A stretch of 62,036 nt of DNA, counting the filler, from Vannella sp. (taxonomy: Eukaryota): the NCBI GenBank assembly GCA_023345925.1. It is 7 parts of 7 records of this genome, joined end to end, with 100 filler letters (N's around TTAATTAATTAA, not from the genome) between each part and the next. Parts side by side here need not be neighbours in the genome. Positions count along the whole stretch, not along the records: positions 24,396 to 38,603 come from JAJQQN010001455.1; 6 more parts are not named here. One strand, given 5' to 3'. Position 1 is the stretch's first letter. Every line of letters starts with the position of its first letter. The notes beneath the pieces were generated by a model. That model saw nothing but the letters and a program-made list of their open reading frames with translations. It ran no database searches and was not told where the DNA came from. This document shows positions 17,138 through 61,527 of the stretch, in pieces. The position numbers were made by a program, and so were the translations under genes.

Positions 17138-20100
17138 ATGCCCTTGTGCTGGCCCGTTGCGTGTTTGGAGGACCGGGAGTGGAGGGAAGAGCGTCAATCA
17201 GACTTTCTAGTGTTGCAAGTGCGAGGAGAGGAGCGGCGCGTGCTGCTTTTGCACAATCACTTTGTTGTGGCCACAGCAATTGGGACGGAGGAGGCAGAGG
17301 AGCTTTGGAGCGCGTGTACGCACGTCACAGAGGTGGTGAGTAACCTCTGCTTTGTTCATCGTTCTCTCATACTTGTAGGCCAAATCAGGGGGTCGTCTGG
17401 TAGCTGCATTTGAGTCGTTGTGGGAAGAACAACGCGATGCGGATGATTCCGACGATGATCTCCCTCAGGACTGTGAGGAGGCCTCTCCTCCATCTTCTCC
17501 TGAAAGAGCAGGTTGGAAGACGGCAGAGGTTCCCTTGAAAGCCTCGGAAGAAGAGTGCACACAACCTCACAAGCCGAGAATAAGCACTTCCCGAGCTTCC
17601 TCTCCCTTACCAGGGCCTCCAGCCTCTATCATCTCACTCCCTTCTGAGCCAGTCGAGCTCTCTAGTGAGGAGCAAGAGCTGCTCTCTCAATTGCTTCTCT
17701 TACTTCGAGAGGAACGCCAGAGAGTGTCTCAACGCCTTCACGTGTTGGGAGGCCCTTCGAAAGGGCCCAGTCATCGGTTACTAGCAGGGCGGTCTTATCT
17801 AGCACGAGCAATCGAGGATTCCCCATTCGAGGGAGCAAGTTTTGCCCCCTTCCATGAGGGCGACTTGGTTGTCGTGGTTGACCACTCGCAGGCCGACCTC
17901 TTCTACGTCCAGACCTCCTCTTTCTTTGGTGTAGCTGCGCGTGTTTCTTTCAAGCTACTCAAATCACTGTCAAACGAGCAAGTCACTAAGAGAGTTCGGA
18001 ATGAGGATGTTTCTCCGCCTGGAGGACTACTTCCACAGACTTCTGGTGTAAAATGGAGTCAAAGTGAGGGTCACATGAAAGGGTGGCTCTTTAAGCAAGG
18101 CTATTGGGTCAATCGAGAGTGGAAACGGCGTTGGTTCTCTCTTGACCTCTCTATTGGGCGACTGTACTACTCAGTATCACCCGAAGATGAAGCCAAAGGC
18201 AATTACCGAGGTTTCATTCAACTCAGAGAAGTGACCACAGTTCACGAGAGTTTCACAGCTGCCATGAATCGTCACTTGCAGCGAGGGACTTGGCCGTTAG
18301 AGATTCACACCCCACAGCGCGTTTGGATTGTAAGCGCAGAGTCTAAAGAAGAAATGGAGGCTTGGATCCATCACATCAATCAGATTGCCCTTCTAATGGA
18401 CCACCGAAGTGGAGCACGTACTTCCTTCCATCTGGAGCACCGGTCAAAGGTACTCGTAGGTGATATATCCGTATCCACAGGAACTTTCACTCCAGGTCGA
18501 TCCAAACAAGTCACTCATACGATGCACCTTTCCACAAACAAGTCAGAAGCTGAGGAGCTGCGGAAAATCTCCTCTCATGCCACACAAAAGGATCCAAAGC
18601 AACTCAAAGAGTTCCCTTTGGATGATTTTTCAGCTTTTGGAGCGCCAGATGGGGAGGAAATCACGAACAAACAAACCATCTTTGCAGAGATTGACCGTTG
18701 GTTGGGGCATCGCAATCCTCCCGATGTGGAGTATATTTACGTGGAGCCTTATCTTAATTATGCATCTGGCAGCGTCATGCTCACTGCCAACCCATATGGA
18801 CACTCGGTAGTCCGCTACACCTTACCAGATACCAAAGAGCAGCTTCTGATGAACATTGTTGGACTAGCTGAGCATGAATTGGTCAATTTCCTCTCCCCAG
18901 AGGACTTTTTCTTCTCGACAAACTTCGACACGAAGATTGGAAATGAACAAGGAGGCATTTACAACCGTAACTTTGCGAGCGTGAGAGTGCAAAGAGTCCC
19001 TCCAGAAAAGATTCTAGCTATGCACCAATACTTCCTCGACCTTCACGCGCGCTCAAAAGGGAGCTGGGCAGACTATAACATTCTTTTGGGACCTATTCTG
19101 AACCGTATCAGCAGCACTCATTATGGTAATTGCGCTCACTGGTCATCTCAAGGACTCTTACAAGCAGGGGTCATGAAAAAGACATCCATGTACCCTAAAT
19201 CTATCTGGATTGAGATGTTTGAAGATCTTCTGCAAGATTCTCAACAGGAGAGGATTTCAAATAACGTTTCCGTTGTATATTACAAGCGGGCTCTACACGC
19301 CAAGCGCTTTTATGGAGAAGATGCCGACTGGACGGGATGGGGACGTGTCACAGATTACTTTAAGAGGGGTTATGATAACCTGGAAATCTTTGCCGACGCT
19401 ATTGTTCACGTTCCGGCGGGCACGAAGACTGCAGTGATTACTTCTGGACCAAAGAGCACTTTAGCTTTAAGAGAGAACCGAATCCGTCTGAAAAAGCAAC
19501 AGGGGCAGTCCATTGTTGATGTGCGATTTGATATTCATGTGGATCCTCGAACACTTTACAATGAGATCTTTTACAAACGTTTCAACATTACCACGTTTGA
19601 AGAGACTCCGATTAACAATCAACTGTTCACTCTCACGGAGAGACCGTACAAGTTGTTGGGGTGTGGATATCCAATCCAAAATAATTGTTGGCGTGTGGAC
19701 CATTCCGACCAACTATTTAAGACCTCAATGGATGAAGATGTGCTCACCTGGATTCCTATAGCGCCTCCAAATCCTGAGAGTGAGCTAATTGATGGTGCAG
19801 AATGTGTGTACTCAATCTTGGCTCCCGGAGAGGATGGCAGCTGTTGGATAGTGCGAGGGAAACGTCTTTACTTTCGCTCCTGTGACTCACTTGATTGGAC
19901 TTTCATTCCCTTACCTGCAACACTGGGCTCTATTCGACATGTTTCTACTGCCTCAGCAGAAGAGGGTGCGTTTATCTTAGATTATGAAAGTGTGCTCTTC
20001 TCTTGGAAGATGGGCAGCTCCTTCGATTCTCCTGATAACTGGAAACTCCTTTCTGAGACACCAAAGCAGTTGCGCTTTGTTTCTGCTGGAATGGGTCAAG

Positions 20101-21214
20101 AGCTCTGGGGACTGACAGAAGAGAATAGTGTTTTTCGTAGGGTCTGCTCTGAGCGCTTCCCTGATGGCAGATGGATCCAATTACATGGTGCCCTGCTCAA
20201 GTCATTATCTGTAGCATCTCCAGAAGAGGTGTGGGGAGTTGATACGCAAGGGCGAGCCTATGTTTGGAATCGGAATGAAGCCCACCAAGAGCTCTCAGAG
20301 GATGTTGAGCTCCAATCCAGTCAAGAAGCGACTCAGATGAGCTGGCAGAGTCTTGGTAATGTGCTGCCTCTTGATACGATTCATGTTAATAGCCACAAAA
20401 TTCCCTGGGGAATGAGTGAGAAGGACCACGGATTCATTTACAAGATAAGCTGTCGCCGCCTCTTGGTCGTCAGCGTTAAGTCTGCCAGAAAGATCTGGGA
20501 CGACCGAGGAACCAAATGTGGACCATATCGCGTTGGGTGAGTTAGGATGGCCTTTATTGGGATGTCTCTGTGCTCACAAAGATTTCAGGTTCTGGCGTCC
20601 CATCACACCGAGGAAATTCTACTCACTTGGGGATGTGGCGGAGAGGAGCCATTTGCAGAATCTTTCCAACGAAGCCATTGTAGTTTGTGAAGTTGGGCGA
20701 CGGCCAGGTGAGGAGCCTATTCTCATTGGTCCACGGTCATTCGACCTCGTTTGGGAGTATGAATCTTCAGAACAGCAATTTGGTGCGTTTGACATCGTCC
20801 AATATCGCTTTAGCTCTCCTGAAACTGATTCTCTTGACAGAAAACTGTTATATCTGGCGTCCTATTGCCCCGGAAGGATACGTCGCGTTGGGAGATGTGG
20901 TAACAACCAAGAAGGAACCACCAGAGAGAAACACTATTCGTTGCGTTAATCGCAGGTTCCTGCACCCTTCAAAACACTGTAGCATGTCCAAAGAACGAAA
21001 ATTTCTGTGGAGCAACGAAGGCTCTTCGAAGATTCGCTCGTCTTCAGCAGTGTCCATTTGGCTCACAAAACCTCGGCTGGACTCGCTCTGGTGCAATGTC
21101 TTTCGGTGCATCCCTGGCTACCACCCTCCGGACTCGGGAATGTTCTGCCTCAAGTTGGCTGTTGCCGGAACCCAAGGCAAGCTCTTGGAGAAGAAACCTC
21201 GTCCGGTTAATTAG
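17138..21214 (+). CDS. Large multidomain protein: SH3-like, PH, putative permuted papain-like peptidase, tectonin beta-propeller repeats, Vps62/DUF946; 3 introns
   Basis: PH MKGWLFKQG..WKRRWFSL..EMEAWIHHI; NPYGHS...GNCAHW; tectonin-like LRFVSAG..LWGL and LKSLSVAS..VWGVD; Vps62-like KIWDDRG, FWRP..LGDV, IWRPIAPEGYVALGDVV. GT-AG introns join the frames. Confidence 0.82.
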
Positions 21215-24395: not shown

Positions 24396-27300
24396 TGAGA
24401 TCAGCTTTTTGATGATCTTCTGACATTCAGGAGCATTTACCAACTCGTGGTTTACGAATCGGATGGTGACTGAAGATCCAGCGCCAATTCCAATTGCTCC
24501 AGGAATAGGAAGGGGAATCACCAGGGGGGAGCTTTCTTCGGCAGACCATTCGGGATTGGGTTCCCAATCTATCTTGCGCGGGAACTTTGTCTTATCGTTG
24601 ATCTGAACACGAGCCTGGAAGTCGATTGAGTAGTCTTGGCCCGATTGGTACTTGGGATTATCAATCTTAGTGGACCAAACCTGCTGGCCCTTTTCCAATG
24701 CCTTACTGAGGCTCAGGCAATCATTGATGTCGTAAGGCTTCATACTTTCATCGTCATCCTGCCAAGAAAAGATGAACTTCGGTACTTCCATGGTGGGAGC
24801 TTGCGTATCTCTGAGTTCCGACTCTAAGCTTCCAGTCGAAAGCCCAAACTCCGTTTCGAGGGAATCAATCAGATTCTTAAAGCGCCCTTGAGTTGACTCC
24901 ACCAGTCTTATCACCTTCAGGCTTCCTAGGTCGACATTGGTTGCTTTTTTAATCGCACCAGCGATGATTCCACAAATCCTTTCCTCGATCTCAGCTCCGG
25001 CTTTGTTGAAGATGCCTGAACTTATCAACGGGATAGCGATGGATCGGATGTTGAGCTTCTTTGCCGCATCCAGTACTTTGACAATCAGACTCTCAAGAAC
25101 AATCTCGGCAAGGTCAAGATCACTCGATTTCTCCCAAGTGGGACCAACCGCATGGATGATGTGTTTGACTCCTTGGTTCGCAAGATTTCCGGACTCACCA
25201 ATCCGGATTCCACCTTCTTGAACCGGACCGTTGACAGAAACATCCAGGTGGGAACTAGCTTGGATGTCAGCTACCCTCTGAATAGCTTTTGCGACACCCC
25301 CACTATGCTGAAGATTGCTGTTTGCCGCATTAACGATAGCGTCAACTTGTTGTCTTGCAATGTCTCCGCGGAGGGCTTCAATTGTTACTCCAAAGACTTT
25401 CTGGCGATAGCCAAGGCGGTGGGGCTTCTCCGAATGGGAAGAGTTGCCTAAATCCACCCATGTTCCAGTGCGATTCGCAAACTCGTTCAGTTTGGTCTTA
25501 TACTCTTCGAGTAAGAAGGCCTCCTCTTCTGCAACAGGGAAACTGATAACCTGGAAGTTCTCTTCCATCTTTTTCACATAAGCGGAAATCCGCTTCGATG
25601 CCTCAGAGACCATGGATGCCGGACCCTGGAGGGTGTAAATGTGCTTGCCTGCTGCTGCAGCTTTCAATGTTACCTGTGGGTAATGCCGCATTTCGTTGTC
25701 GAAGAACTTTTTTACGCCTTTTTTGCATGCTTGACGGCAAAGTGGGAAGCCTTTCATATCCACTTTAGCAGACTCTTGACGTTGTGAAGTAGTTCCAGTA
25801 AGTAATGCGGTGATTGCATCGATAGAGTTCTGTGGGCCGATGAGCTGCAGAGACAAGGCATCGTAATCGGAGATAAGCTCAGTGGAGTACTCTGTCATCA
25901 AGTACTCAAGTTCAACGTTCTTGTTGGCTTGAAGCTCCTTTAACTTCTTCGCAGTCATGGGCAATGTGACACTCTGAATGTTCAAAGCCTCAGCACGTTC
26001 CAGGGCGGCATCAACCTGGTCGACTTCCCCAATGAAGATCACTTTGTCTGGTCGGCGGATACCACACACAGATAAATCCTCCCATGCACTAGAGAGAAGT
26101 AGCTCCATCCTGTTCTGAGAGACTCTGACTTTGAAAGGCTTCGTAACTAGATCGATGTCTAGTCTCTCAAATGCAGCATCCACATTCTCTTTCAAGCCTT
26201 TGATACGGTATCCATAGCCACTTCCCTTTGCAGCGGCCTTCTTCTTTGGATTCGGTTTGAAGAGCTGAATCCGAACACTGCAGACCTCTTCTGTCTCGCG
26301 GCATAGTTGTTGCCCAGGTTCGCTCCACCAAGCAGGGAGCTCTTGTGAGAGATTGATGGTTGCGGATTTCTCCGCGTGTTCTTGGAGCCACTTCTCCACA
26401 AGTTCTACTTCCGAATCAAGCGAAGAGACAAAACCACTCAGGACGATTCCTCCTTCATCTGGATTCGGAATAGCTTCCACAGCTGGGTCAGTGAAACCGA
26501 AACGGTTCTTCCAATCAGTTTGTTTCTGCTCTGCAAGGCGCCTCACATCTGCTTTGCATTCAACAACTAGCTTTAGGTATTGTCGCTTACTGAGGTCACT
26601 AATGGCCCTCTGAAGTTCCATTCGGAGGCTGTCCGGAGCCAAGGCAATCACCTGAGTTCCTTCAAAACCAAAGAAGAAGTCAGGATACAGCTTTTTGCAC
26701 CAGCTGACAGTCTCTTTTGTTGACGAAGAGGCCCTGAATGACTTTTGGCAGACCGTCGTTTGCCAACCCTGGAGATTCACCTTGTCTTCGAAGAGCTTGA
26801 AACAGACAGTGCAGTTTTGTCCATTCCTCTTAACTTTGAGAACGTTCGTGGCTTCCCAGTCCTTGACTGTATCTGGTTCGCACTTGCGGAAGAAGTTCCA
26901 GTAGAGCAGAGTGATCGGAAAGTCAAAGGTTTCGTGTTCGTCATTCTCATCGTAATCGTCATCCTCCTCTTCCTCTTCCTCTTCCTCAAGCTTGATGGGC
27001 TTCACTTTCACTCTCTTCTTTGCTGAAGTCTTTGGTTGAGGTGTGCCTTGAATGGGAGGGGTCCCCGCTTTGTTCTTTTGATTGGGTCTTTTGGGAGTTC
27101 TCACTCCCCCTCCGTTCGTGGTACGAGGGCCCTTCTTAGTAGGAGGGGGAGGTGCGTGACGGAATCCGCATACTTTCGTACAGCTGTCTTTCATGAAGTG
27201 CATGCAGTTTCGCCCCAGCTTTGGTGGAGCAGCGGGCACCTGCTTTCCATGTGCATCGAGAATGGGGTGGTCGTCGAGGCACTTGCGGTCATTACAGCGA

Positions 27301-27578
27301 GACTTGAAGCGGCAAAGAGAACCAGTGTAATCCGGTCCTGCAGAGGAAGCCTGTCGAGGTGTTGGTGGTTGGGAGCCTCCATCTTCTCCACAGTGGCGGT
27401 TCCTGCAACCGGTTCCATATGAACACAAGTTGTTTAGATGGTACCTGCAGTTCAGTGCAGCCTCGGCGGTAGCAGCAGGTCGCTCCGCACCATTAACGAA
27501 GACGGTGTGGACCAAGTTGCAAGCTTTGTCCGCACAACGAGAGCGATTGGGGCACTTTCTCAGGGAGTGCGGCTCCAT
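24396..27578 (-). CDS. CCCH zinc finger x4 - KH-like repeats - macrodomain - WWE protein (PARP14/PARP9/ZAP-like); C-terminus cut by the contig end
   Basis: Four CCCH fingers; KH-like segments (YRIKGLKENVDAAF, LQLIGPQNSIDA, YTLQGPASMVSEA); macrodomain GDIARQQVDAIVNAANSNLQHSGGVAKAI..IIHAVGP..IAIPLISSGIF; WWE-like FSWQDDD..KPYD..YSIDFQARVQIN..RKI. Confidence 0.88.
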
Positions 27579-27898
27579 AGACCGGTTCCCAGAGGGCTCC
27601 AACAGGACCATGAAGGAGGGGGAAAGGTGAAAATGGCTCATCCAATGAGAGGAAGGGATGAATAAAAAAAGGGCCAGTGATTGGCTGGAAAAAATTGCTG
27701 CTCTCGGGTTAGTTAGCATTAACATAACTCTTGTAAAATTGATTAAAAGTCAGACACTGTTATCCTGCTGGCTATTGTTCTAATCGGAATCTTTCGAAGT
27801 TTTTTTTCCTTGAAATGGTCGTTTTGGTTTAGGTGCACCTCCTCTCCTGGGCATTTGTTTGTTGCGAGGCGTCTGGGGTCAGTAATCTGAGAGTGGAT

Positions 27899-30800
27899 AT
27901 GTCAGGTGACCTTTCAGCAACAAAGAAGGCGCACGCCCTTCTCAAGCAGAGGCAGTCTTCGGTTGTGTCTCTGCGCTCTTCTGCAAGGAGAAGCTCATCC
28001 GCTGGTGTCGAGTCTGTTGAAGGCAAAGAGGCAGCTTCTTTGGTTCCTAAGTCACCCGACAACATCCAAGAAGCCCCTTCCAAACCAAAGAAAGCCGTGA
28101 AAGGCATCCCTTTCCTGGCTGTTGAAGAACCACCGTCCTCTCCCGCAGCTTCTGATACATCAGAGAGCAAGATAGGAGCATCCACGGCCTCTTCCAATGG
28201 GGAGCAGCCGCCCAAGAAACCCAAGAAGCCGAAAAAGTCGACCAAAGGAGCTAACAAGGCTGCGGAGGAGCCCTGGTCCATCGCCCAACCCGCGTACCGT
28301 TCTACAAGCTCAGAGGAATCTCTAAAAGGAGGGTTCTTCGTCCATCCTTCCTCATCAAACGAGACACGCGGCCGAAGCGTCTCCGCCTCCTCTCGAGAGG
28401 AGACTTTCTTCAAGACCCCGCCTTCCACCGCCATCCTGTCACCTCCTGTGACAGGTGGTGGTGACCTAATTGTCCCTTTCACACGTGACCAAAGGAAGAG
28501 CCAAGCCCCAGCGGTTGAGCAACGAAAGGGAGCGCTTTCCTTCGATGTCGAGGAGTTAGACGAGAGCCCCGAAGCAGGTCACTCCAAGGACAAGCCAGTC
28601 ATGTCACGACGCAAGCGTATCAAGAGCTTCAGTGTCAACGCAGCTGGCTCGGCTGTGAACTCGCTGAGGTCGAAGAAGACAATCTCCCGCAAAGCCAAAG
28701 ATGACGCGTCCGGAGTGAGCCCTTCTGAGGGATCTCCTGCTCTAAGCCCTCGTGAGGAAGACAACCAGGCGTCAGAGGAATCCTGTGCCAAGAACTTCCA
28801 GCAAAACAGCTTGGCCGTCTCGCAATCCTTAGAGAAGCGGAATAAGTCTCCCAGGGTTGCTTCTGTAGTCGAGGAGGAGGCTCCCAAGGAGCCTGAGACG
28901 ACGCTTTTGAAGGTTGACAGTACTTTCAATAAGCCCCGCGTTGCGCGCGTTGAGTTCCGGCCAGAGAACATCATGAAGGCTTTTGAGATCACTCCCCGCA
29001 CTTCTCCTTTGGAGGCTTTCCATTCAATTATGGCCAAGATGAGCAAAGGACTTCCCCCAGAGAAGCGGGACACGTTGGTGGCCAAGTACGCCAAGTATGC
29101 CCTCTACCGACAATTGGGAGGTGACGAGATTCAAGAAATCTATGAGGATGAACCCTTACTGTCCCCTTTGCAGGTGGTAGGAGGCAATACGCCAATGTTC
29201 CTCTTCACTGACCAAGCAGTTCTCAAAGGGGATCGTCCAGAAGAGAGCGGTCGATGTTGTATTAACTTTGGCAGCTTATTGCAAGAAGCTCACATGAAGG
29301 AGGAGAAGAAAGCGGACAACGCAACGGACGAACTCGTCATCACCGAGAGGAAGTTCCTTTTTGACACAGACTTGCTCCTGCAAATGGTCCTCAAGCCACT
29401 GTGTGAGGAGGACATTATTCCTGCTAAGACCCGCAGCAAGATCTTCTTGAACATCAGACAAATCAACTCTTTCCACCGCGAGTTATATCGCCGTTTCCAG
29501 ATCGATAATACTGTTGCAGGCATCGCAGCAGTCTTTGATGAAGGGACGTTTGCAGATTTGGAGAAAGTGTATACAACCTTCCTGGGGAACTATGAGAGCG
29601 CTCTTGCTGTCTTCTATGAAACTCGAGACCACTCGGAGAAGTTTAGAAAATTCCTGGCTCGCCTCTCTGCCGAGAGTCCTGTCTTTAAGGACCGCTCACT
29701 CAACAACCTTTTAGTGACTCCCATGCAGCGTGTGTGCAAGTACGAGCTGCTTATCAAGAATCTCATATCCCAAGAGAAGAAACGTCCCAAACCGGATGAA
29801 GTTGCCGTCAAGAAGCTAAAACGCGTTATGGCCAAGCTCAACAGTACTTTGCAGATGATTGACCGCCGCCGTGTCGAAACAGATGAGTGGAGTCGAATCT
29901 TGCAGTTGGAAGAGAAGCTGGGACTGCCAGAACCTCTGCGAAAGCGTGGGCGAATCATCGTGGCTGAGGGCACCTTTAATACCTCCCGGCGTCAGTTTAC
30001 AGGCAATCTTACCTCTCGAGTCTGCACAGTCATCTTGTTCAATGATATTCTCCTCCGGGTGTACAAGTCCAACACGACAGCGCAGTATAAGGTGGAAGAT
30101 ACTTGCCAATTGAATCACCTGGTCTTGATTGACCCCTTCTCCATCTATGCAGCCGAACCTCACACGATTATCCTCTGTAGTAAGGATCCACGAGGAGCTA
30201 TCTTTACGCTCTACTTGGGCTCAAATGAGGAGCGGCAAGAATGGCACCAATATTTGGTGCGCTACACCATCCCGATGAATTTGTTCTGCCAAGAACTGCT
30301 TCATAATCCCTCTGGTGAAGCTTCTAGTCAAGAGATTATCTTCGCAGTGGACAACTGCTCTTGGGAGGAAGCGTTTGTTGAGCGGTGCCGGGTTATGGTG
30401 ACTACCAGCCGACTTGTTCTTCTCTGGGAAGCATTTGGGATGACTCAAAGCGAGATCATTCCTCTCCAAAGCATCACAGACATTGAAGGAAACAAAGATA
30501 CTGGCGAACATATCAGCACCAACCTCTGGACTGAGAATTACAATCTCAATAAGTTCAATAACTACTCCAACTTCTCGAGTGTCTTCCACAATGTTTGGCA
30601 ATCTTCCAGAAAACGGAAAAAGCTGGAAGAACCGAAGAGTGTGCCGTGCCCACTGCCTAAGGCTCCAACTCCATGGAGCAACTTTACTACCTTGAGCAAA
30701 GAGGAGTGGAAGAACATTTGGAAAGTCTCTCAGACCATCGAACTGAAAGCTGACGAAGTTCTACTTTCTCTGGGGAAGCCAAACGAATGTCTCTATATGG

Positions 30801-31063
30801 TATCCAAAGGGAGCGTTATTCGCAACACCGCCAATGAGGAATCCTGCACTCTCACGAAGGGCCGCATGTGCGGCGCTTCTTCGTTCCTCTTGGAAGGAAG
30901 TATGTCCACAGAAAGGGTCATTGGGGGAGGAGAGGGAGCGTCACTCCGCTGTAAGTCTCGAAAGGACATTCTCGACCATCTCGCCGCCAACCCTTCTCTA
31001 TTGGCGAAATTCTTTGCGACAATCTCTCGCAATCTCCTGGAGGAAGAACAAGCCTGCCAATGA
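27899..31063 (+). CDS. Dbl-family RhoGEF (DH-PH) with GRAM-like and degenerate cNMP-binding domains; intronless
   Basis: DH ELVITERKFLFD..LLVTPMQRVCKYELLIKNL; PH LFNDILL..ERQEW; GRAM-like RVMVTTSRLVL..IIPLQSITDI; cNMP-like IELKADEVLLSLGKPNECLYMVSKGSV. Confidence 0.88.
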   Translation: MSGDLSATKKAHALLKQRQSSVVSLRSSARRSSSAGVESVEGKEAASLVPKSPDNIQEAPSKPKKAVKGIPFLAVEEPPSSPAASDTSESKIGASTASSNGEQPPKKPKKPKKSTKGANKAAEEPWSIAQPAYRSTSSEESLKGGFFVHPSSSNETRGRSVSASSREETFFKTPPSTAILSPPVTGGGDLIVPFTRDQRKSQAPAVEQRKGALSFDVEELDESPEAGHSKDKPVMSRRKRIKSFSVNAAGSAVNSLRSKKTISRKAKDDASGVSPSEGSPALSPREEDNQASEESCAKNFQQNSLAVSQSLEKRNKSPRVASVVEEEAPKEPETTLLKVDSTFNKPRVARVEFRPENIMKAFEITPRTSPLEAFHSIMAKMSKGLPPEKRDTLVAKYAKYALYRQLGGDEIQEIYEDEPLLSPLQVVGGNTPMFLFTDQAVLKGDRPEESGRCCINFGSLLQEAHMKEEKKADNATDELVITERKFLFDTDLLLQMVLKPLCEEDIIPAKTRSKIFLNIRQINSFHRELYRRFQIDNTVAGIAAVFDEGTFADLEKVYTTFLGNYESALAVFYETRDHSEKFRKFLARLSAESPVFKDRSLNNLLVTPMQRVCKYELLIKNLISQEKKRPKPDEVAVKKLKRVMAKLNSTLQMIDRRRVETDEWSRILQLEEKLGLPEPLRKRGRIIVAEGTFNTSRRQFTGNLTSRVCTVILFNDILLRVYKSNTTAQYKVEDTCQLNHLVLIDPFSIYAAEPHTIILCSKDPRGAIFTLYLGSNEERQEWHQYLVRYTIPMNLFCQELLHNPSGEASSQEIIFAVDNCSWEEAFVERCRVMVTTSRLVLLWEAFGMTQSEIIPLQSITDIEGNKDTGEHISTNLWTENYNLNKFNNYSNFSSVFHNVWQSSRKRKKLEEPKSVPCPLPKAPTPWSNFTTLSKEEWKNIWKVSQTIELKADEVLLSLGKPNECLYMVSKGSVIRNTANEESCTLTKGRMCGASSFLLEGSMSTERVIGGGEGASLRCKSRKDILDHLAANPSLLAKFFATISRNLLEEEQACQ

Positions 31064-37876: not shown

Positions 37877-38452
37877 TCATTGTGCAGAGCAATCACGCTT
37901 GCTCCTAGCTGTGGTGTCGGATCCGCTCTTGATCCTCGCTGGGTTGTCTTTCTGGATCTCACGAACCAGCTCGAAGAAGGCCTCTTTGACGTTGATGCCA
38001 GTCTTGGAAGAGGTCTCGTAGAAAGGGCAGCCCAAGGACTCGCTCAGGCTCTGGCCTTCTAAAGCAGACACTTGTCGTTCGTCCTCCAGGTCACACCTGT
38101 TCCCCACAAGGACCATGGGCACCTTGTCTGTACCCTTCACGCAGAGGATGAGATCACACAAGGTGGTTATCTCGTCAAAGGAGCTTCGGGAGGTGATGGT
38201 GTATGTGCAAAGGAAGCCTTGTCCTGTGCTTGTGCGCTGCTCGTGGGTGTGGAAGCTCTCTCCTTGGCCAGCTATGTCAAGAACATCAAGCAGACATGAC
38301 TCATCGCCGATGGTTTCCTGTTTGCGGAAAGTATCTTCCTGGATCTCCAGACAAACATAATCGCCCGTAAACTGACCGTGCACAAACTGGTGGGTCAAGG
38401 CAGTCTTGCCAACACCCACTCCTCCAACAACTACAAGCTTGTACTCCGTCAT
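37877..38452 (-). CDS. Divergent Ras-subfamily small GTPase with CaaX (CSAQ); intronless
   Basis: MTEYKLVVVGGVGVGKT, DIAGQ, TGQGFL, LVGNRCDL, ETSSK. Confidence 0.93.
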   Translation of the reverse strand: MTEYKLVVVGGVGVGKTALTHQFVHGQFTGDYVCLEIQEDTFRKQETIGDESCLLDVLDIAGQGESFHTHEQRTSTGQGFLCTYTITSRSSFDEITTLCDLILCVKGTDKVPMVLVGNRCDLEDERQVSALEGQSLSESLGCPFYETSSKTGINVKEAFFELVREIQKDNPARIKSGSDTTARSKRDCSAQ

Positions 38453-38603
38453 TGGTGTCACAGCCCCAATGTCCACGACCAAGACCTTCGAAAGAGTTCA
38501 CGGCCCCAGTAAACCACGCCCGCTGCACGGTTGAAAAATACCTCTTAATTCGATCGGGACCTTTACCAATGAACTTTTTATGTGTTTTGGTTGAGGTACT
38601 TTT

Positions 38604-60372: not shown

Positions 60373-61527
60373 CTATATTGAGGCGCAGAAGTAGGGGGAA
60401 TAGCATCTGTGAGACAGAGAGGGACCATCTGTATCGTACTGATCCTTGGAGATCCATTTCTCCTGGAAGGTCGAGAGCGAGGCGAGAATGCTTCCTCCTA
60501 TCCAGGCAGAGTACTTGCGTTCTGGTGGTGCCACGACGTGGACTTTCGTTGTAATAGGAGTCAACTCATCGAGCTCCTTGTACAGTCTCTCTGGAAAGCC
60601 TGGGAACATGGTAGATCCGCCACAGAGGAGAACATTGTGGAACAAATGGTTCCGCACATCAATGGCACAGCTCATGATGGCATTGTAGATCAAAAGATGG
60701 ATCCCTCCCGCTTCCTTGGCTATCAGAGAAGGCCTGAAAAGAACTTCCGGACAGAGAAAGCGCTCCTCGTTCAAGGTAATCACCTTCCCATCAGGAAGTT
60801 CGTACTCCCGTGCACTTGCAGAGGAACACGTCGACTCTGACAGCTCTTGGTCAAAGTCTAAGGCCACAAAGCACAGTTTCTCTTTGATCTCTCGTACGAT
60901 CTCCCACTCTGCTGTGGTGGTGAAGGCGTAGCCTTGAGCCCGGAGGATCTTGGCCAAGTAATCCGTCACATCCCGCCCCGCCAGGTCCAATCGAGCGACT
61001 CCGTGTGGTAGGGCAAAGCCATCGGTGATGGGGATGACGTGGGAGACCCCTTCTCCTGAGTCTATGACCATGGCGGTGTTGCGCCCTGATGCGTAGGCGG
61101 CCAGGATGGAGGAAGTGGCTATGTAGACGGCTGGGACCTTGAAGACTTCGAACATAATCGTCATCATCTTCTCTCGATTGGCTTTGGGCTGAAGGATGGG
61201 CTCTGTAAGGAGAACGGGATGCTCCTCGGGGGAGATGCGGAGCTCGTTGTAGAAGATGTGGTGCCAGAGCTTCTCCATAGCTTCCCAGTCACGAATGATT
61301 CCGCGGGTTATCGGATACTGCAAAGCCAAGGCGAACCGCTGGACGGACGCCTCCTCCCCGTATCGGGTTCTCTCACCCGCCCCAATCATCACAGGCTCGT
61401 GCAAAGGCCGACCTACAAGGGTAGGTAGGACAACTCTTGGTGCATCTTCACCTGCAAACCCCCCTTTCGTGACGCCACTGCCACAGTCCAACACCAGAGG
61501 CAGAGCAGTCTGGTCCGTACAGCTCAT
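60373..61527 (-). CDS. Divergent actin / actin-like protein; intronless
   Basis: [71 protein letters not shown]. Confidence 0.95.

What the first reader, a model, noticed from the sequence alone, without database searches (positions are those of the whole stretch)
24396..27578. ZAP/PARP14-like antiviral ADP-ribosylation protein in a protist
Seen: an intronless >3 kb ORF with two pairs of CCCH fingers (Cx5Cx4Cx3H + Cx7Cx5Cx3H; Cx5Cx4Cx3H + Cx7Cx3Cx3H), a run of KH-like repeats, a macrodomain with intact NAAN/GGV/SSGIF motifs and a WWE-like domain. The Macro-WWE block appears to sit inside a split KH unit (LNEFANRTGTWVDL ... SSVTIRFV). Known: ZAP/PARP13 and PARP12 use CCCH fingers plus WWE to bind viral RNA and ADP-ribose; PARP9/PARP14 carry macrodomains inserted in a KH array, and those motifs mark hydrolase-type macrodomains. 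Inference: a single-chain RNA sensor/ADP-ribose reader-eraser, probably followed by a PARP or RING/Deltex effector lost at the contig break. This is a candidate unicellular innate immune system and the best lead in the window.
Basis: partly seen in the sequence, partly recalled or inferred. Interest (0 to 1): 0.85.

Follow-up and report, generated by a model that had tools for sequence, protein, structure and literature searches.

The report
Zinc-finger-capped PARP14 relative in a protist
A microbial eukaryote, likely an amoeba, carries a relative of the animal antiviral enzyme PARP14 that is predicted to add and remove ADP-ribose tags and starts with four zinc-finger motifs that likely bind RNA; a role in virus defence is plausible but untested.

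Summary
The window has an open frame of 1060 codons, cut by the contig end, with four CCCH-type motifs, KH-like repeats, a macrodomain and a WWE domain. A 97%-identical full-length copy (P0003, 1317 aa) supplies the missing end: one more KH and a PARP domain with an H-Y-V triad, predicting mono-ADP-ribosylation. The macrodomain groups with PARP14 MD1 and keeps its hydrolase residues. Profile tests support Macro-WWE sitting inside a split KH.

It is not a ZAP member. It belongs to a single-macrodomain branch of PARP14-like proteins (KH array, split KH holding Macro-WWE, KH, ART). That order occurs in 96 of 228 proteins examined, including three amoebozoans and Diphylleia; their ART domains separate cleanly from animal PARP14. 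The branch is known in outline (Dictyostelium U-box macroPARP), but I found its KH scaffold undescribed. The CCCH cap occurred in 0 of 225 other proteins, so it looks like a lineage-specific, ZAP-convergent addition.

The gene region shows about four times the variant density of its neighbours, but pN/pS is below 1. Antiviral function is inferred only. Verdict: new variant of a known kind.

The parts
24396..27578 (-). Open frame, 1060 aa, cut by the contig end. The last ~260 aa (KH8 + ART) are not in the window and come from the 97%-identical P0003
   Evidence: tblastn finds no ART-coding DNA elsewhere in the window
27507..27554 (-). CCCH-type motif 1 (Cx5Cx4Cx3H, aa 9-24)
27393..27449 (-). 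CCCH-type motif 2 (Cx7Cx5Cx3H, aa 44-62); weak Pfam zf_CCCH_4
27267..27314 (-). CCCH-type motif 3 (Cx5Cx4Cx3H, aa 89-104)
27156..27206 (-). CCCH-type motif 4 (Cx7Cx3Cx3H, aa 125-141)
26934..27155 (-). Pro/Lys-rich then poly-acidic linker (aa 142-215), likely disordered
   Evidence: sequence directly; coordinates
26583..26930 (-). Alpha/beta region (aa 217-332), low model confidence; possibly one more diverged KH-like unit, not supported by profiles
   Evidence: U0 and U1 do not beat shuffles
25557..26582 (-). Five tandem KH-like units (aa 333-674), without GxxG loops
25443..25556 (-). First half of the split KH (aa 675-712, ending at WVDL)
24855..25427 (-). Macrodomain of PARP14-MD1 type (D739, N753, G760/G761, I856-F857), predicted hydrolase
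   Evidence: Z 29.9, rmsd 1.2 A over 188 residues to PARP9 MD1
24549..24785 (-). WWE domain with W939, Y983, Q992, N994, T997, R1001; predicted ADP-ribose reader; polymorphic at 998-1000
24399..24482 (-). Second half of the split KH (aa 1033-1060, SSVTIRFV strand + helix), running into the contig end
24296..24395 (.). Artificial contig linker (N44-TTAATTAATTAA-N44); not biological

Best explanation
The window holds the first 1060 codons of a PARP14-like protein whose full-length form (4 CCCH motifs, KH-like array, split KH enclosing Macro and WWE, KH, PARP domain) is predicted to write, read and erase mono-ADP-ribose, and likely does so on RNA-protein targets picked by its zinc-finger cap as part of a stress or anti-parasite response. 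Shown: domain content and order, the H-Y-V triad in the 97%-identical copy, hydrolase-type macrodomain residues, and placement in a single-macrodomain branch beside animal PARP14. Inferred: (1) the CCCH cap binds single-stranded RNA; (2) the GxxG-less KH array is a rod-like scaffold for RNA tracking or partner binding; (3) the ART adds single ADP-ribose units; (4) the WWE holds ADP-ribosylated product next to the macrodomain, which removes the mark and keeps resting levels low; (5) the trigger is foreign or stalled RNA. I put the enzyme identity at about 0.85 and a defence role at about 0.45.
For: P0003 is 97% identical over 1060 aa and carries Macro, WWE and PARP. H1199-Y1230-V1298 aligns with the H-Y-L of the mammalian PARP14 P0014; aliphatic third residues mark likely mono-ARTs (PMC2964712). 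Best PDB sequence hits are PARP14 macrodomains, then PARP15/14 ART at 69-76 bits, against PARP12 at 58. The four residue criteria taken from PMC10221186 are met here, in 76 of 96 single-macro proteins and in 57 of 65 MD1, but in 0 of 65 MD2 and 0 of 65 MD3. The macro tree joins them with MD1, SH-aLRT 98. KH: family profile of P0003 530-735 matches PARP14 KH5-6-7a at 97% over 129 columns, and 1030-1120 matches KH7b-KH8 at 96% over 88 columns. The two halves joined match intact KH6 over 62 columns (96.8%, E 3e-10), against 33 and 23 columns alone; wrong-partner and reversed joins do not extend. AF2 model: mean pLDDT 78. The WWE's nearest solved relative is the nucleotide-bound TRIP12 WWE, with Q-N-T-R aligned. 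Variants: 56 sites in 3805 bp against 31 in 8760 flanking bp. Of the 29 substitutions between the two copies, 11 fall in aa 38-163, 7 in aa 944-1014, and 2 in the macrodomain.
Against: No activity, binding or expression data. The window's own DNA for the ART is missing. The CCCH motifs pass no Pfam cut-off and have no clear PDB relative (best E 0.75). No GxxG loop lies in the KH region apart from one GFEG at 301; GxxG-less KH-like domains of PARP14/PARP9/DTX3L were tied to protein binding (PMC11080071). With the query alone, the joined split KH is weak (9 and 32 of 200 shuffles score as high), and single-sequence hhalign probabilities reach at most 60%, so the KH call leans on the family profile. 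pTM is 0.46 and the fold searches tested only Macro and ART. pN/pS is 0.38, below 1, and 16 of 56 sites were not listed; relaxed constraint or a collapsed duplicate would also raise diversity. The host is only weakly placed.
Confidence: 0.6

Rival explanations
1. Same enzyme, housekeeping job: a regulator of the cell's own mRNA (stress granules, translation, encystment or development), with the CCCH fingers reading host transcripts.
For: PMC4245714 suggests stress-granule function for the ancestral clade-3 PARP. The family is kept across amoebozoans, Diphylleia and a fungus. The neighbours are housekeeping genes (RhoGEF, SUV3, RpiA, LRR). pN/pS is below 1.
Against: Diversity is about fourfold higher than in flanking genes, with a larger non-synonymous share (18:16 against 7:22 after merging double-hit codons, Fisher p 0.023). 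The N-terminal cap differs between family members (U-box/CAP-Gly/RRM, RRM, cold-shock, SAM-like, CCCH), a pattern typical of conflict genes (inference).
Confidence: 0.25
2. The KH array and fingers are mainly a protein scaffold that couples ADP-ribosylation to a ubiquitin ligase, as in PARP9/PARP14-DTX3L, with RNA binding secondary.
For: No GxxG loops; KH-like domains mediate PARP14/PARP9-DTX3L contacts (PMC11080071); the Luapelamoeba relative carries a U-box; the only other hit of the first homolog search was a Macro-KH-RING-DTC protein.
Against: No E3 domain in P0003 at a meaningful E-value and no partner gene seen on the contig. PARP14 KH1-2 and KH8 fragments do bind ssRNA (PMC10450202).
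Confidence: 0.1
3. P0003 is a recent paralogue, not an allele, and the window's copy ends differently or is broken beyond the contig end.
For: The contig breaks inside the gene, and 3% protein difference is high against an identical SUV3 neighbour. No laid contig spans the stretch.
Against: 14 of the 29 P0003 substitutions appear as alternative letters in the same runs, and variant contigs run on into the upstream region (to 27765-27769) with few differences and no joint. The frame is open to the last base and matches P0003 there. Either way the architecture exists in P0003.
Confidence: 0.08
4. It descends from a common ancestor of ZAP/PARP12 and PARP14 that had both CCCH fingers and a macrodomain.
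For: Four N-terminal CCCH motifs, a WWE and an ART are shared with ZAP/PARP12 (PMC8102003).
Against: 0 of 225 other proteins, including 95 with the same domain order, have the motif. No ZAP finger structure was hit. There is no fifth finger or second WWE. The ART nests among single-macro proteins (no ZAP/PARP12 sequence was in that tree).
Confidence: 0.04

Closest known systems
Animal PARP14 (clade 3 macroPARP; RRM1-3, KH1-6, split KH7 with MD1-3, KH8, WWE, ART)
   Same: KH array ending in a split KH that encloses the macrodomain, then one more KH and a mono-ART; MD1-type hydrolase residues.
   Different: One macrodomain, not three. The WWE lies inside the split KH, 46 aa after Macro and 122 aa before the ART; in PARP14-type proteins it lies just before the ART (8-31 aa in 71 of 73). 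CCCH cap instead of RRMs. The WWE keeps Q-N-T-R pocket residues, whereas PARP14's is reported to lack PAR binding. The ART falls on the other side of a branch with support 100.
Dictyostelium U-box macroPARP (pARTg / DDB0232928) and other amoebozoan and choanoflagellate PARP14-like proteins
   Same: Single Macro plus PARP in Amoebozoa (PMC2964712; PMC4245714; PMC5087659). The Polysphondylium, Cochliopodium and Luapelamoeba proteins share the Macro-WWE-gap-ART order and ART group.
   Different: CCCH cap instead of U-box or RRM. The passages I read mention no KH array and no WWE inside a split KH. The Dictyostelium sequence itself was not compared; P0222's N-terminus looks U-box-like by eye only (not called by Pfam at 1e-3).
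ZAP/PARP13 and PARP12
   Same: Four N-terminal CCCH-type fingers, WWE and C-terminal PARP domain (PMC8102003).
   Different: No fifth finger, one WWE, plus about 700 aa of KH and Macro that ZAP lacks; no sequence hit to ZAP finger structures; ART scores lower to PARP12; H-Y-V suggests an active enzyme, while human PARP13 is reported inactive.
PARP9 / DTX3L
   Same: Split KH with an MD1-type macrodomain; best structural match is PARP9 MD1 (Z 29.9).
   Different: Triad predicted active; no RING-DTC.

Membership tests
Clade-3 PARP14-like macroPARP (broad sense, PMC4245714) | C-terminal PARP ART domain | tested here: met
   In P0003 (Pfam PARP E 6.8e-12; Z 25.1 to PARP15); beyond the contig end in the window
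Clade-3 PARP14-like macroPARP (broad sense, PMC4245714) | H-Y-aliphatic triad (mono-ART type) | tested here: met
   H1199-Y1230-V1298
Clade-3 PARP14-like macroPARP (broad sense, PMC4245714) | At least one macrodomain N-terminal to the ART | tested here: met
Clade-3 PARP14-like macroPARP (broad sense, PMC4245714) | KH array with macrodomain inserted in a split KH, one more KH before the ART | tested here: met
   Family-level profile tests and AF2 secondary structure; weak for the query alone
Clade-3 PARP14-like macroPARP (broad sense, PMC4245714) | Mono-ADP-ribosyltransferase and hydrolase activity | not testable with these tools
   Residues only
Animal PARP14 proper | Three tandem macrodomains | tested here: not met
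   One Macro
Animal PARP14 proper | WWE between KH8 and ART | tested here: not met
   WWE precedes KH7b-KH8
Animal PARP14 proper | N-terminal RRMs | tested here: not met
   No RRM by Pfam or a local profile; the N-terminus holds the CCCH motifs; aa 217-332 remain unassigned
Animal PARP14 proper | ART groups with animal PARP14 | tested here: not met
   87 single-macro rows against 55 PARP14-type rows, split with support 100 (FastTree)
ZAP/PARP12 (PMC8102003) | Four N-terminal CCCH fingers | tested here: inconclusive
   Four motifs present but homology to ZAP fingers not detected; aa 1-213 were not in the good model
ZAP/PARP12 (PMC8102003) | Fifth CCCH finger plus two WWE as central domain | tested here: not met
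   Four motifs only, one WWE
ZAP/PARP12 (PMC8102003) | Binding of CpG-rich viral RNA and antiviral activity | not testable with these tools
   Window CpG observed/expected is 0.70, mild depletion only
Deltex/DTX3L | C-terminal RING-DTC | tested here: not met
   P0003 ends in the ART

The most novel reading that the evidence does not exclude
The PARP14 machine (KH rod, split KH, self-erasing MD1, mono-ART) predates animals as a single-macrodomain, WWE-in-KH enzyme shared by amoebozoans, a CRuMs flagellate and a fungus. It takes swappable RNA-sensing caps, and this lineage independently built a ZAP-like CCCH sensor onto it, giving a one-chain, fast-diversifying RNA-triggered antiviral switch in a unicellular eukaryote.
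Probability: 0.3. Interest if true: 0.8.

Novelty: new variant of a known kind. Interest (0 to 1): 0.52.

Why it matters
Reviews date PARP14 to about 700 million years and call the three-macrodomain form the ancestral macroPARP of animals. A KH-scaffolded, MD1-bearing form in Amoebozoa and Diphylleia would push the writer-eraser design much further back. It would also make tractable amoebae a place to ask whether reversible mono-ADP-ribosylation began as antiviral defence, without interferon. The CCCH cap joins in one chain the two clade-3 designs that animals keep apart (ZAP-type fingers and PARP14-type Macro/KH); I did not find this in print in ten full-text searches. The general existence of protist macroPARPs is already known, which caps the surprise.

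Tried and rejected
No whole genome is held for the window, so paralogues could not be counted. The ART-coding DNA was not found elsewhere in the window or in JGI metagenome contigs (protein scan, 64 pattern matches, none confirmed; exact 30-base pattern, 0 matches). Laid contigs gave no extension past the break. No RNA holder was listed, which is no evidence on expression. The single-sequence AF2 model was unusable (pLDDT 37). Foldseek and VIA-align lists were filled by Macro and ART, so the KH region was not tested by fold. The viral-contig scan gave one 18-residue match (L001, E 5e-4), which I rejected. Alignment A1 was too diverse for locus scans. The window's actin is divergent and gave no host placement. 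The careful SUV3 tree did not finish and the quick tree was used. P0204's high score comes from five tandem ART repeats, not close kinship. Units U0 and U1 (aa 217-332) failed the shuffle test as KH. Three look-ups of earlier findings returned nothing. RING-DTC as the missing end was rejected. No complex prediction was run.
Full report
Observation. The window is seven contigs joined by N44-TTAATTAATTAA-N44 linkers. The contig at 24396-38603 begins inside a minus-strand frame that is open from 27725; taking the ATG at 27578, it gives 1060 residues with no stop before the break. Pfam gives Macro at 749-858 (E 1.6e-21) and WWE at 937-1003 (E 1.2e-7). None of 20,000 shuffles of the first 145 residues gave four motifs, and 225 other proteins (323,962 aa) had none. 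They are divergent: best Pfam E 0.017, below cut-off; best relevant PDB hit E 0.75; Atlas neighbours mostly zf-CCCH clusters at 0.83-0.88, lead level.

The missing end. A full-length search returned 2 proteins among 7992 scored candidates. One, P0003, is 1317 aa and 97% identical over all 1060 residues. It continues through about 60 residues into a PARP domain with the triad H1199-Y1230-V1298, aligned to H-Y-L of a mammalian PARP14. Such triads mark likely mono-ARTs (PMC2964712, passages and the Clade 3 section). In the PDB its ART scores 69-76 bits to PARP15/PARP14, 58 to PARP12 and 37 to PARP10. Fourteen of the 29 substitutions between the copies appear as alternative letters in runs X1-X3, so P0003 is most simply a second allele; a recent duplicate is not excluded.

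KH array and split KH. An AF2 model of P0003 214-1317 on an 87-row alignment (mean pLDDT 78, pTM 0.46) shows five repeating alpha/beta units at about 332-671, a less certain one before them, a half unit at 672-707, then Macro, WWE, a half unit at 1032-1060, a full unit at 1062-1119 and the ART. Family profiles match PARP14 KH5-KH6-KH7a (97%, 129 columns) and KH7b-KH8 (96%, 88 columns). The first half alone aligns to intact KH6 over 33 columns and the second over 23. Joined, they align over 62 columns (96.8%, E 3e-10); wrong-partner and reversed joins stay at 23-33 columns. With the query alone the evidence is thinner. Units U3-U6 and U8 beat all 200 shuffles against other KH units of the family, U2 is reached by 2 of 200 against PARP14 KH, and U0, U1 and the joined split unit do not stand out. 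The fold searches tested only Macro and ART. No GxxG loop is present apart from GFEG at 301. GxxG-less KH-like domains of PARP14/PARP9/DTX3L were linked to protein binding (PMC11080071, passages), while PARP14 KH1-2 and KH8 fragments bind ssRNA (PMC10450202, passages and the PARP9/10/14/15 section).

Macro and WWE. PMC10221186 (passages) lists Asn/Ser and Gly at loop 1 and a hydrophobic-aromatic pair at loop 2 as hydrolase features. This protein has N753, G761, I856 and F857. The test is met by 76 of 96 single-macro proteins and 57 of 65 PARP14 MD1, but by 0 of 65 MD2 and 0 of 65 MD3. A tree of 90 chosen macrodomains (of 291) joins the single macrodomains with MD1, SH-aLRT 98. The best structural match is PARP9 MD1 (Z 29.9, rmsd 1.2 A, 188 residues). 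PARP14 MD1 is a shown hydrolase (PMC10499325, passages). The WWE's nearest solved relative is TRIP12 WWE (E 1.8e-4), with the Q-N-T-R stretch aligned. A conserved Gln, Trp, Tyr and Arg bind the nucleotide in such domains (PMC11269756, passages and structure section); assigning them to W939, Y983, Q992 and R1001 is my inference from the alignment. Q and R are kept in 78 and 77 of 86 relatives.

The family. Among 228 proteins gathered (the representative search listed only the best 150 of 8285 hits), local profiles found 96 with the order Macro, one to three WWE, a gap of 103-224 aa, ART. These include P0003 and 10 near-duplicate cluster members. Another 71-73 had the PARP14 order, with several Macros and the WWE next to the ART. 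An ART tree of 142 rows, with 10 near-duplicates and 16 bird sequences dropped and Endogone added, separates the two sets with one change and support 100 (FastTree, midpoint root only). Of 20 single-macro relatives looked up, four have species names: Cochliopodium minus, Luapelamoeba hula, Polysphondylium violaceum and Diphylleia rotans. An Endogone protein has Macro, a weak WWE and PARP. Most others are unnamed. N-terminal caps vary among the 22 scanned: CAP-Gly/U-box/RRM in one, RRM in four more, cold-shock in one, a weak SAM in one. The closest relative, P0205, starts 145 residues before its macrodomain, so its cap is unknown.

Host. The SUV3 helicase on the same contig has no close named relative. 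Its best named hits are a record flagged as contamination, then Balamuthia (45%), Polysphondylium, a glomeromycete and Heterostelium. A quick tree of 41 of the 120 listed hits puts it outside the animal-fungal group and on the amoebozoan side with SH-aLRT 89. An amoebozoan host is likely, not shown. The best-holding runs are three biofilm metagenomes of one study.

Diversity. Laying four runs gave 56 variant sites in 3805 bp over the gene (40 listed, 16 not shown) against 31 in the next 8760 bp (binomial p 6e-11). The runs were found with this gene, depth is about 2-6 and single-contig variants may be errors. Listed coding sites are 21 non-synonymous to 16 synonymous against 8 to 22 in four neighbours, or 18:16 against 7:22 after merging double-hit codons (Fisher p 0.023). 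pN/pS is 0.38 against 0.08-0.30. Differences between the two protein copies cluster in the finger region (11 of 29) and WWE region (7 of 29) and spare the macrodomain (2 of 29). This fits old balanced alleles in sensor parts but does not show positive selection.

Mechanism. Shown: parts, order, catalytic residues and family placement. Inferred: the fingers bind RNA, the KH rod scaffolds, the ART writes mono-ADP-ribose, the WWE reads it and the adjacent MD1-type macrodomain erases it, as in the PARP14 writer-eraser cycle. A defence role is inferred from analogy with interferon-induced PARPs (PMC13224862, passages and the Evolution section), the variable caps and the diversity; I put it at about 0.45, against about 0.25 for host mRNA or stress control.

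Comparison with print. PMC4245714 (passages and section 3.1.5) already states that the macrodomain PARP ancestor arose early in unikonts, and that amoebozoan and choanoflagellate clade-3 proteins carry Macro, RRM, WWE and PARP. PMC2964712 and PMC5087659 (passages) describe the Dictyostelium U-box macroPARP. I did not see their figures or supplements. PMC8102003 (passages) defines ZAP/PARP12 by five fingers and WWE in a configuration that this protein does not meet. The passages of bioRxiv 10.64898/2026.04.23.720386 cover metazoans only. In ten full-text searches (listings only for papers not named here) I found no report of a KH array in non-animal macroPARPs, of a WWE inside the split KH, or of CCCH fingers on a macroPARP. 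The library lacks most subscription journals.

Verdict. Real, well read by the first stage, and completed here by the PARP end. It works like PARP14, is a member of the broad PARP14-like clade-3 group, and is neither animal PARP14 proper nor ZAP. New variant of a known kind; interest 0.52.

Noticed in passing
window 17418-20540 (+): 1040-aa ORF with a PH domain, about 400 aa of unannotated centre and a C-terminal Tectonin domain.
   Followed up: no
window 60373-61527 (-): Divergent actin-family protein, about 530 bits to all PDB actins with no clear nearest.
   Followed up: partly
window 27833-31063 (+): RhoGEF-PH protein with a weak C-terminal cNMP-binding domain, head-to-head with the PARP gene (ATGs about 320 bp apart), so a shared promoter is possible.
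   Followed up: no
window 37877-38482 (-): Ras-family ORF in one open frame with GGVGVGKT in the P-loop; possibly a divergent paralogue.
   Followed up: no
protein P0204: One KH followed by five near-identical tandem ART domains; real repeat or assembly artefact not tested.
   Followed up: no
protein P0027 (Endogone sp.): Fungal Macro-WWE(weak)-PARP protein, whereas bioRxiv 10.64898/2026.07.25.740670 says no macrodomain was detected in fungal PARPs (passages). Contamination or transfer not tested.
   Followed up: partly
proteins P0007-P0012, P0015 and relatives: A large unnamed group with two or three WWE domains between Macro and KH, on contigs up to 6.3 Mb; organism not known.
   Followed up: partly
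whole window: CpG observed/expected 0.70 and TpA 0.51.
   Followed up: no
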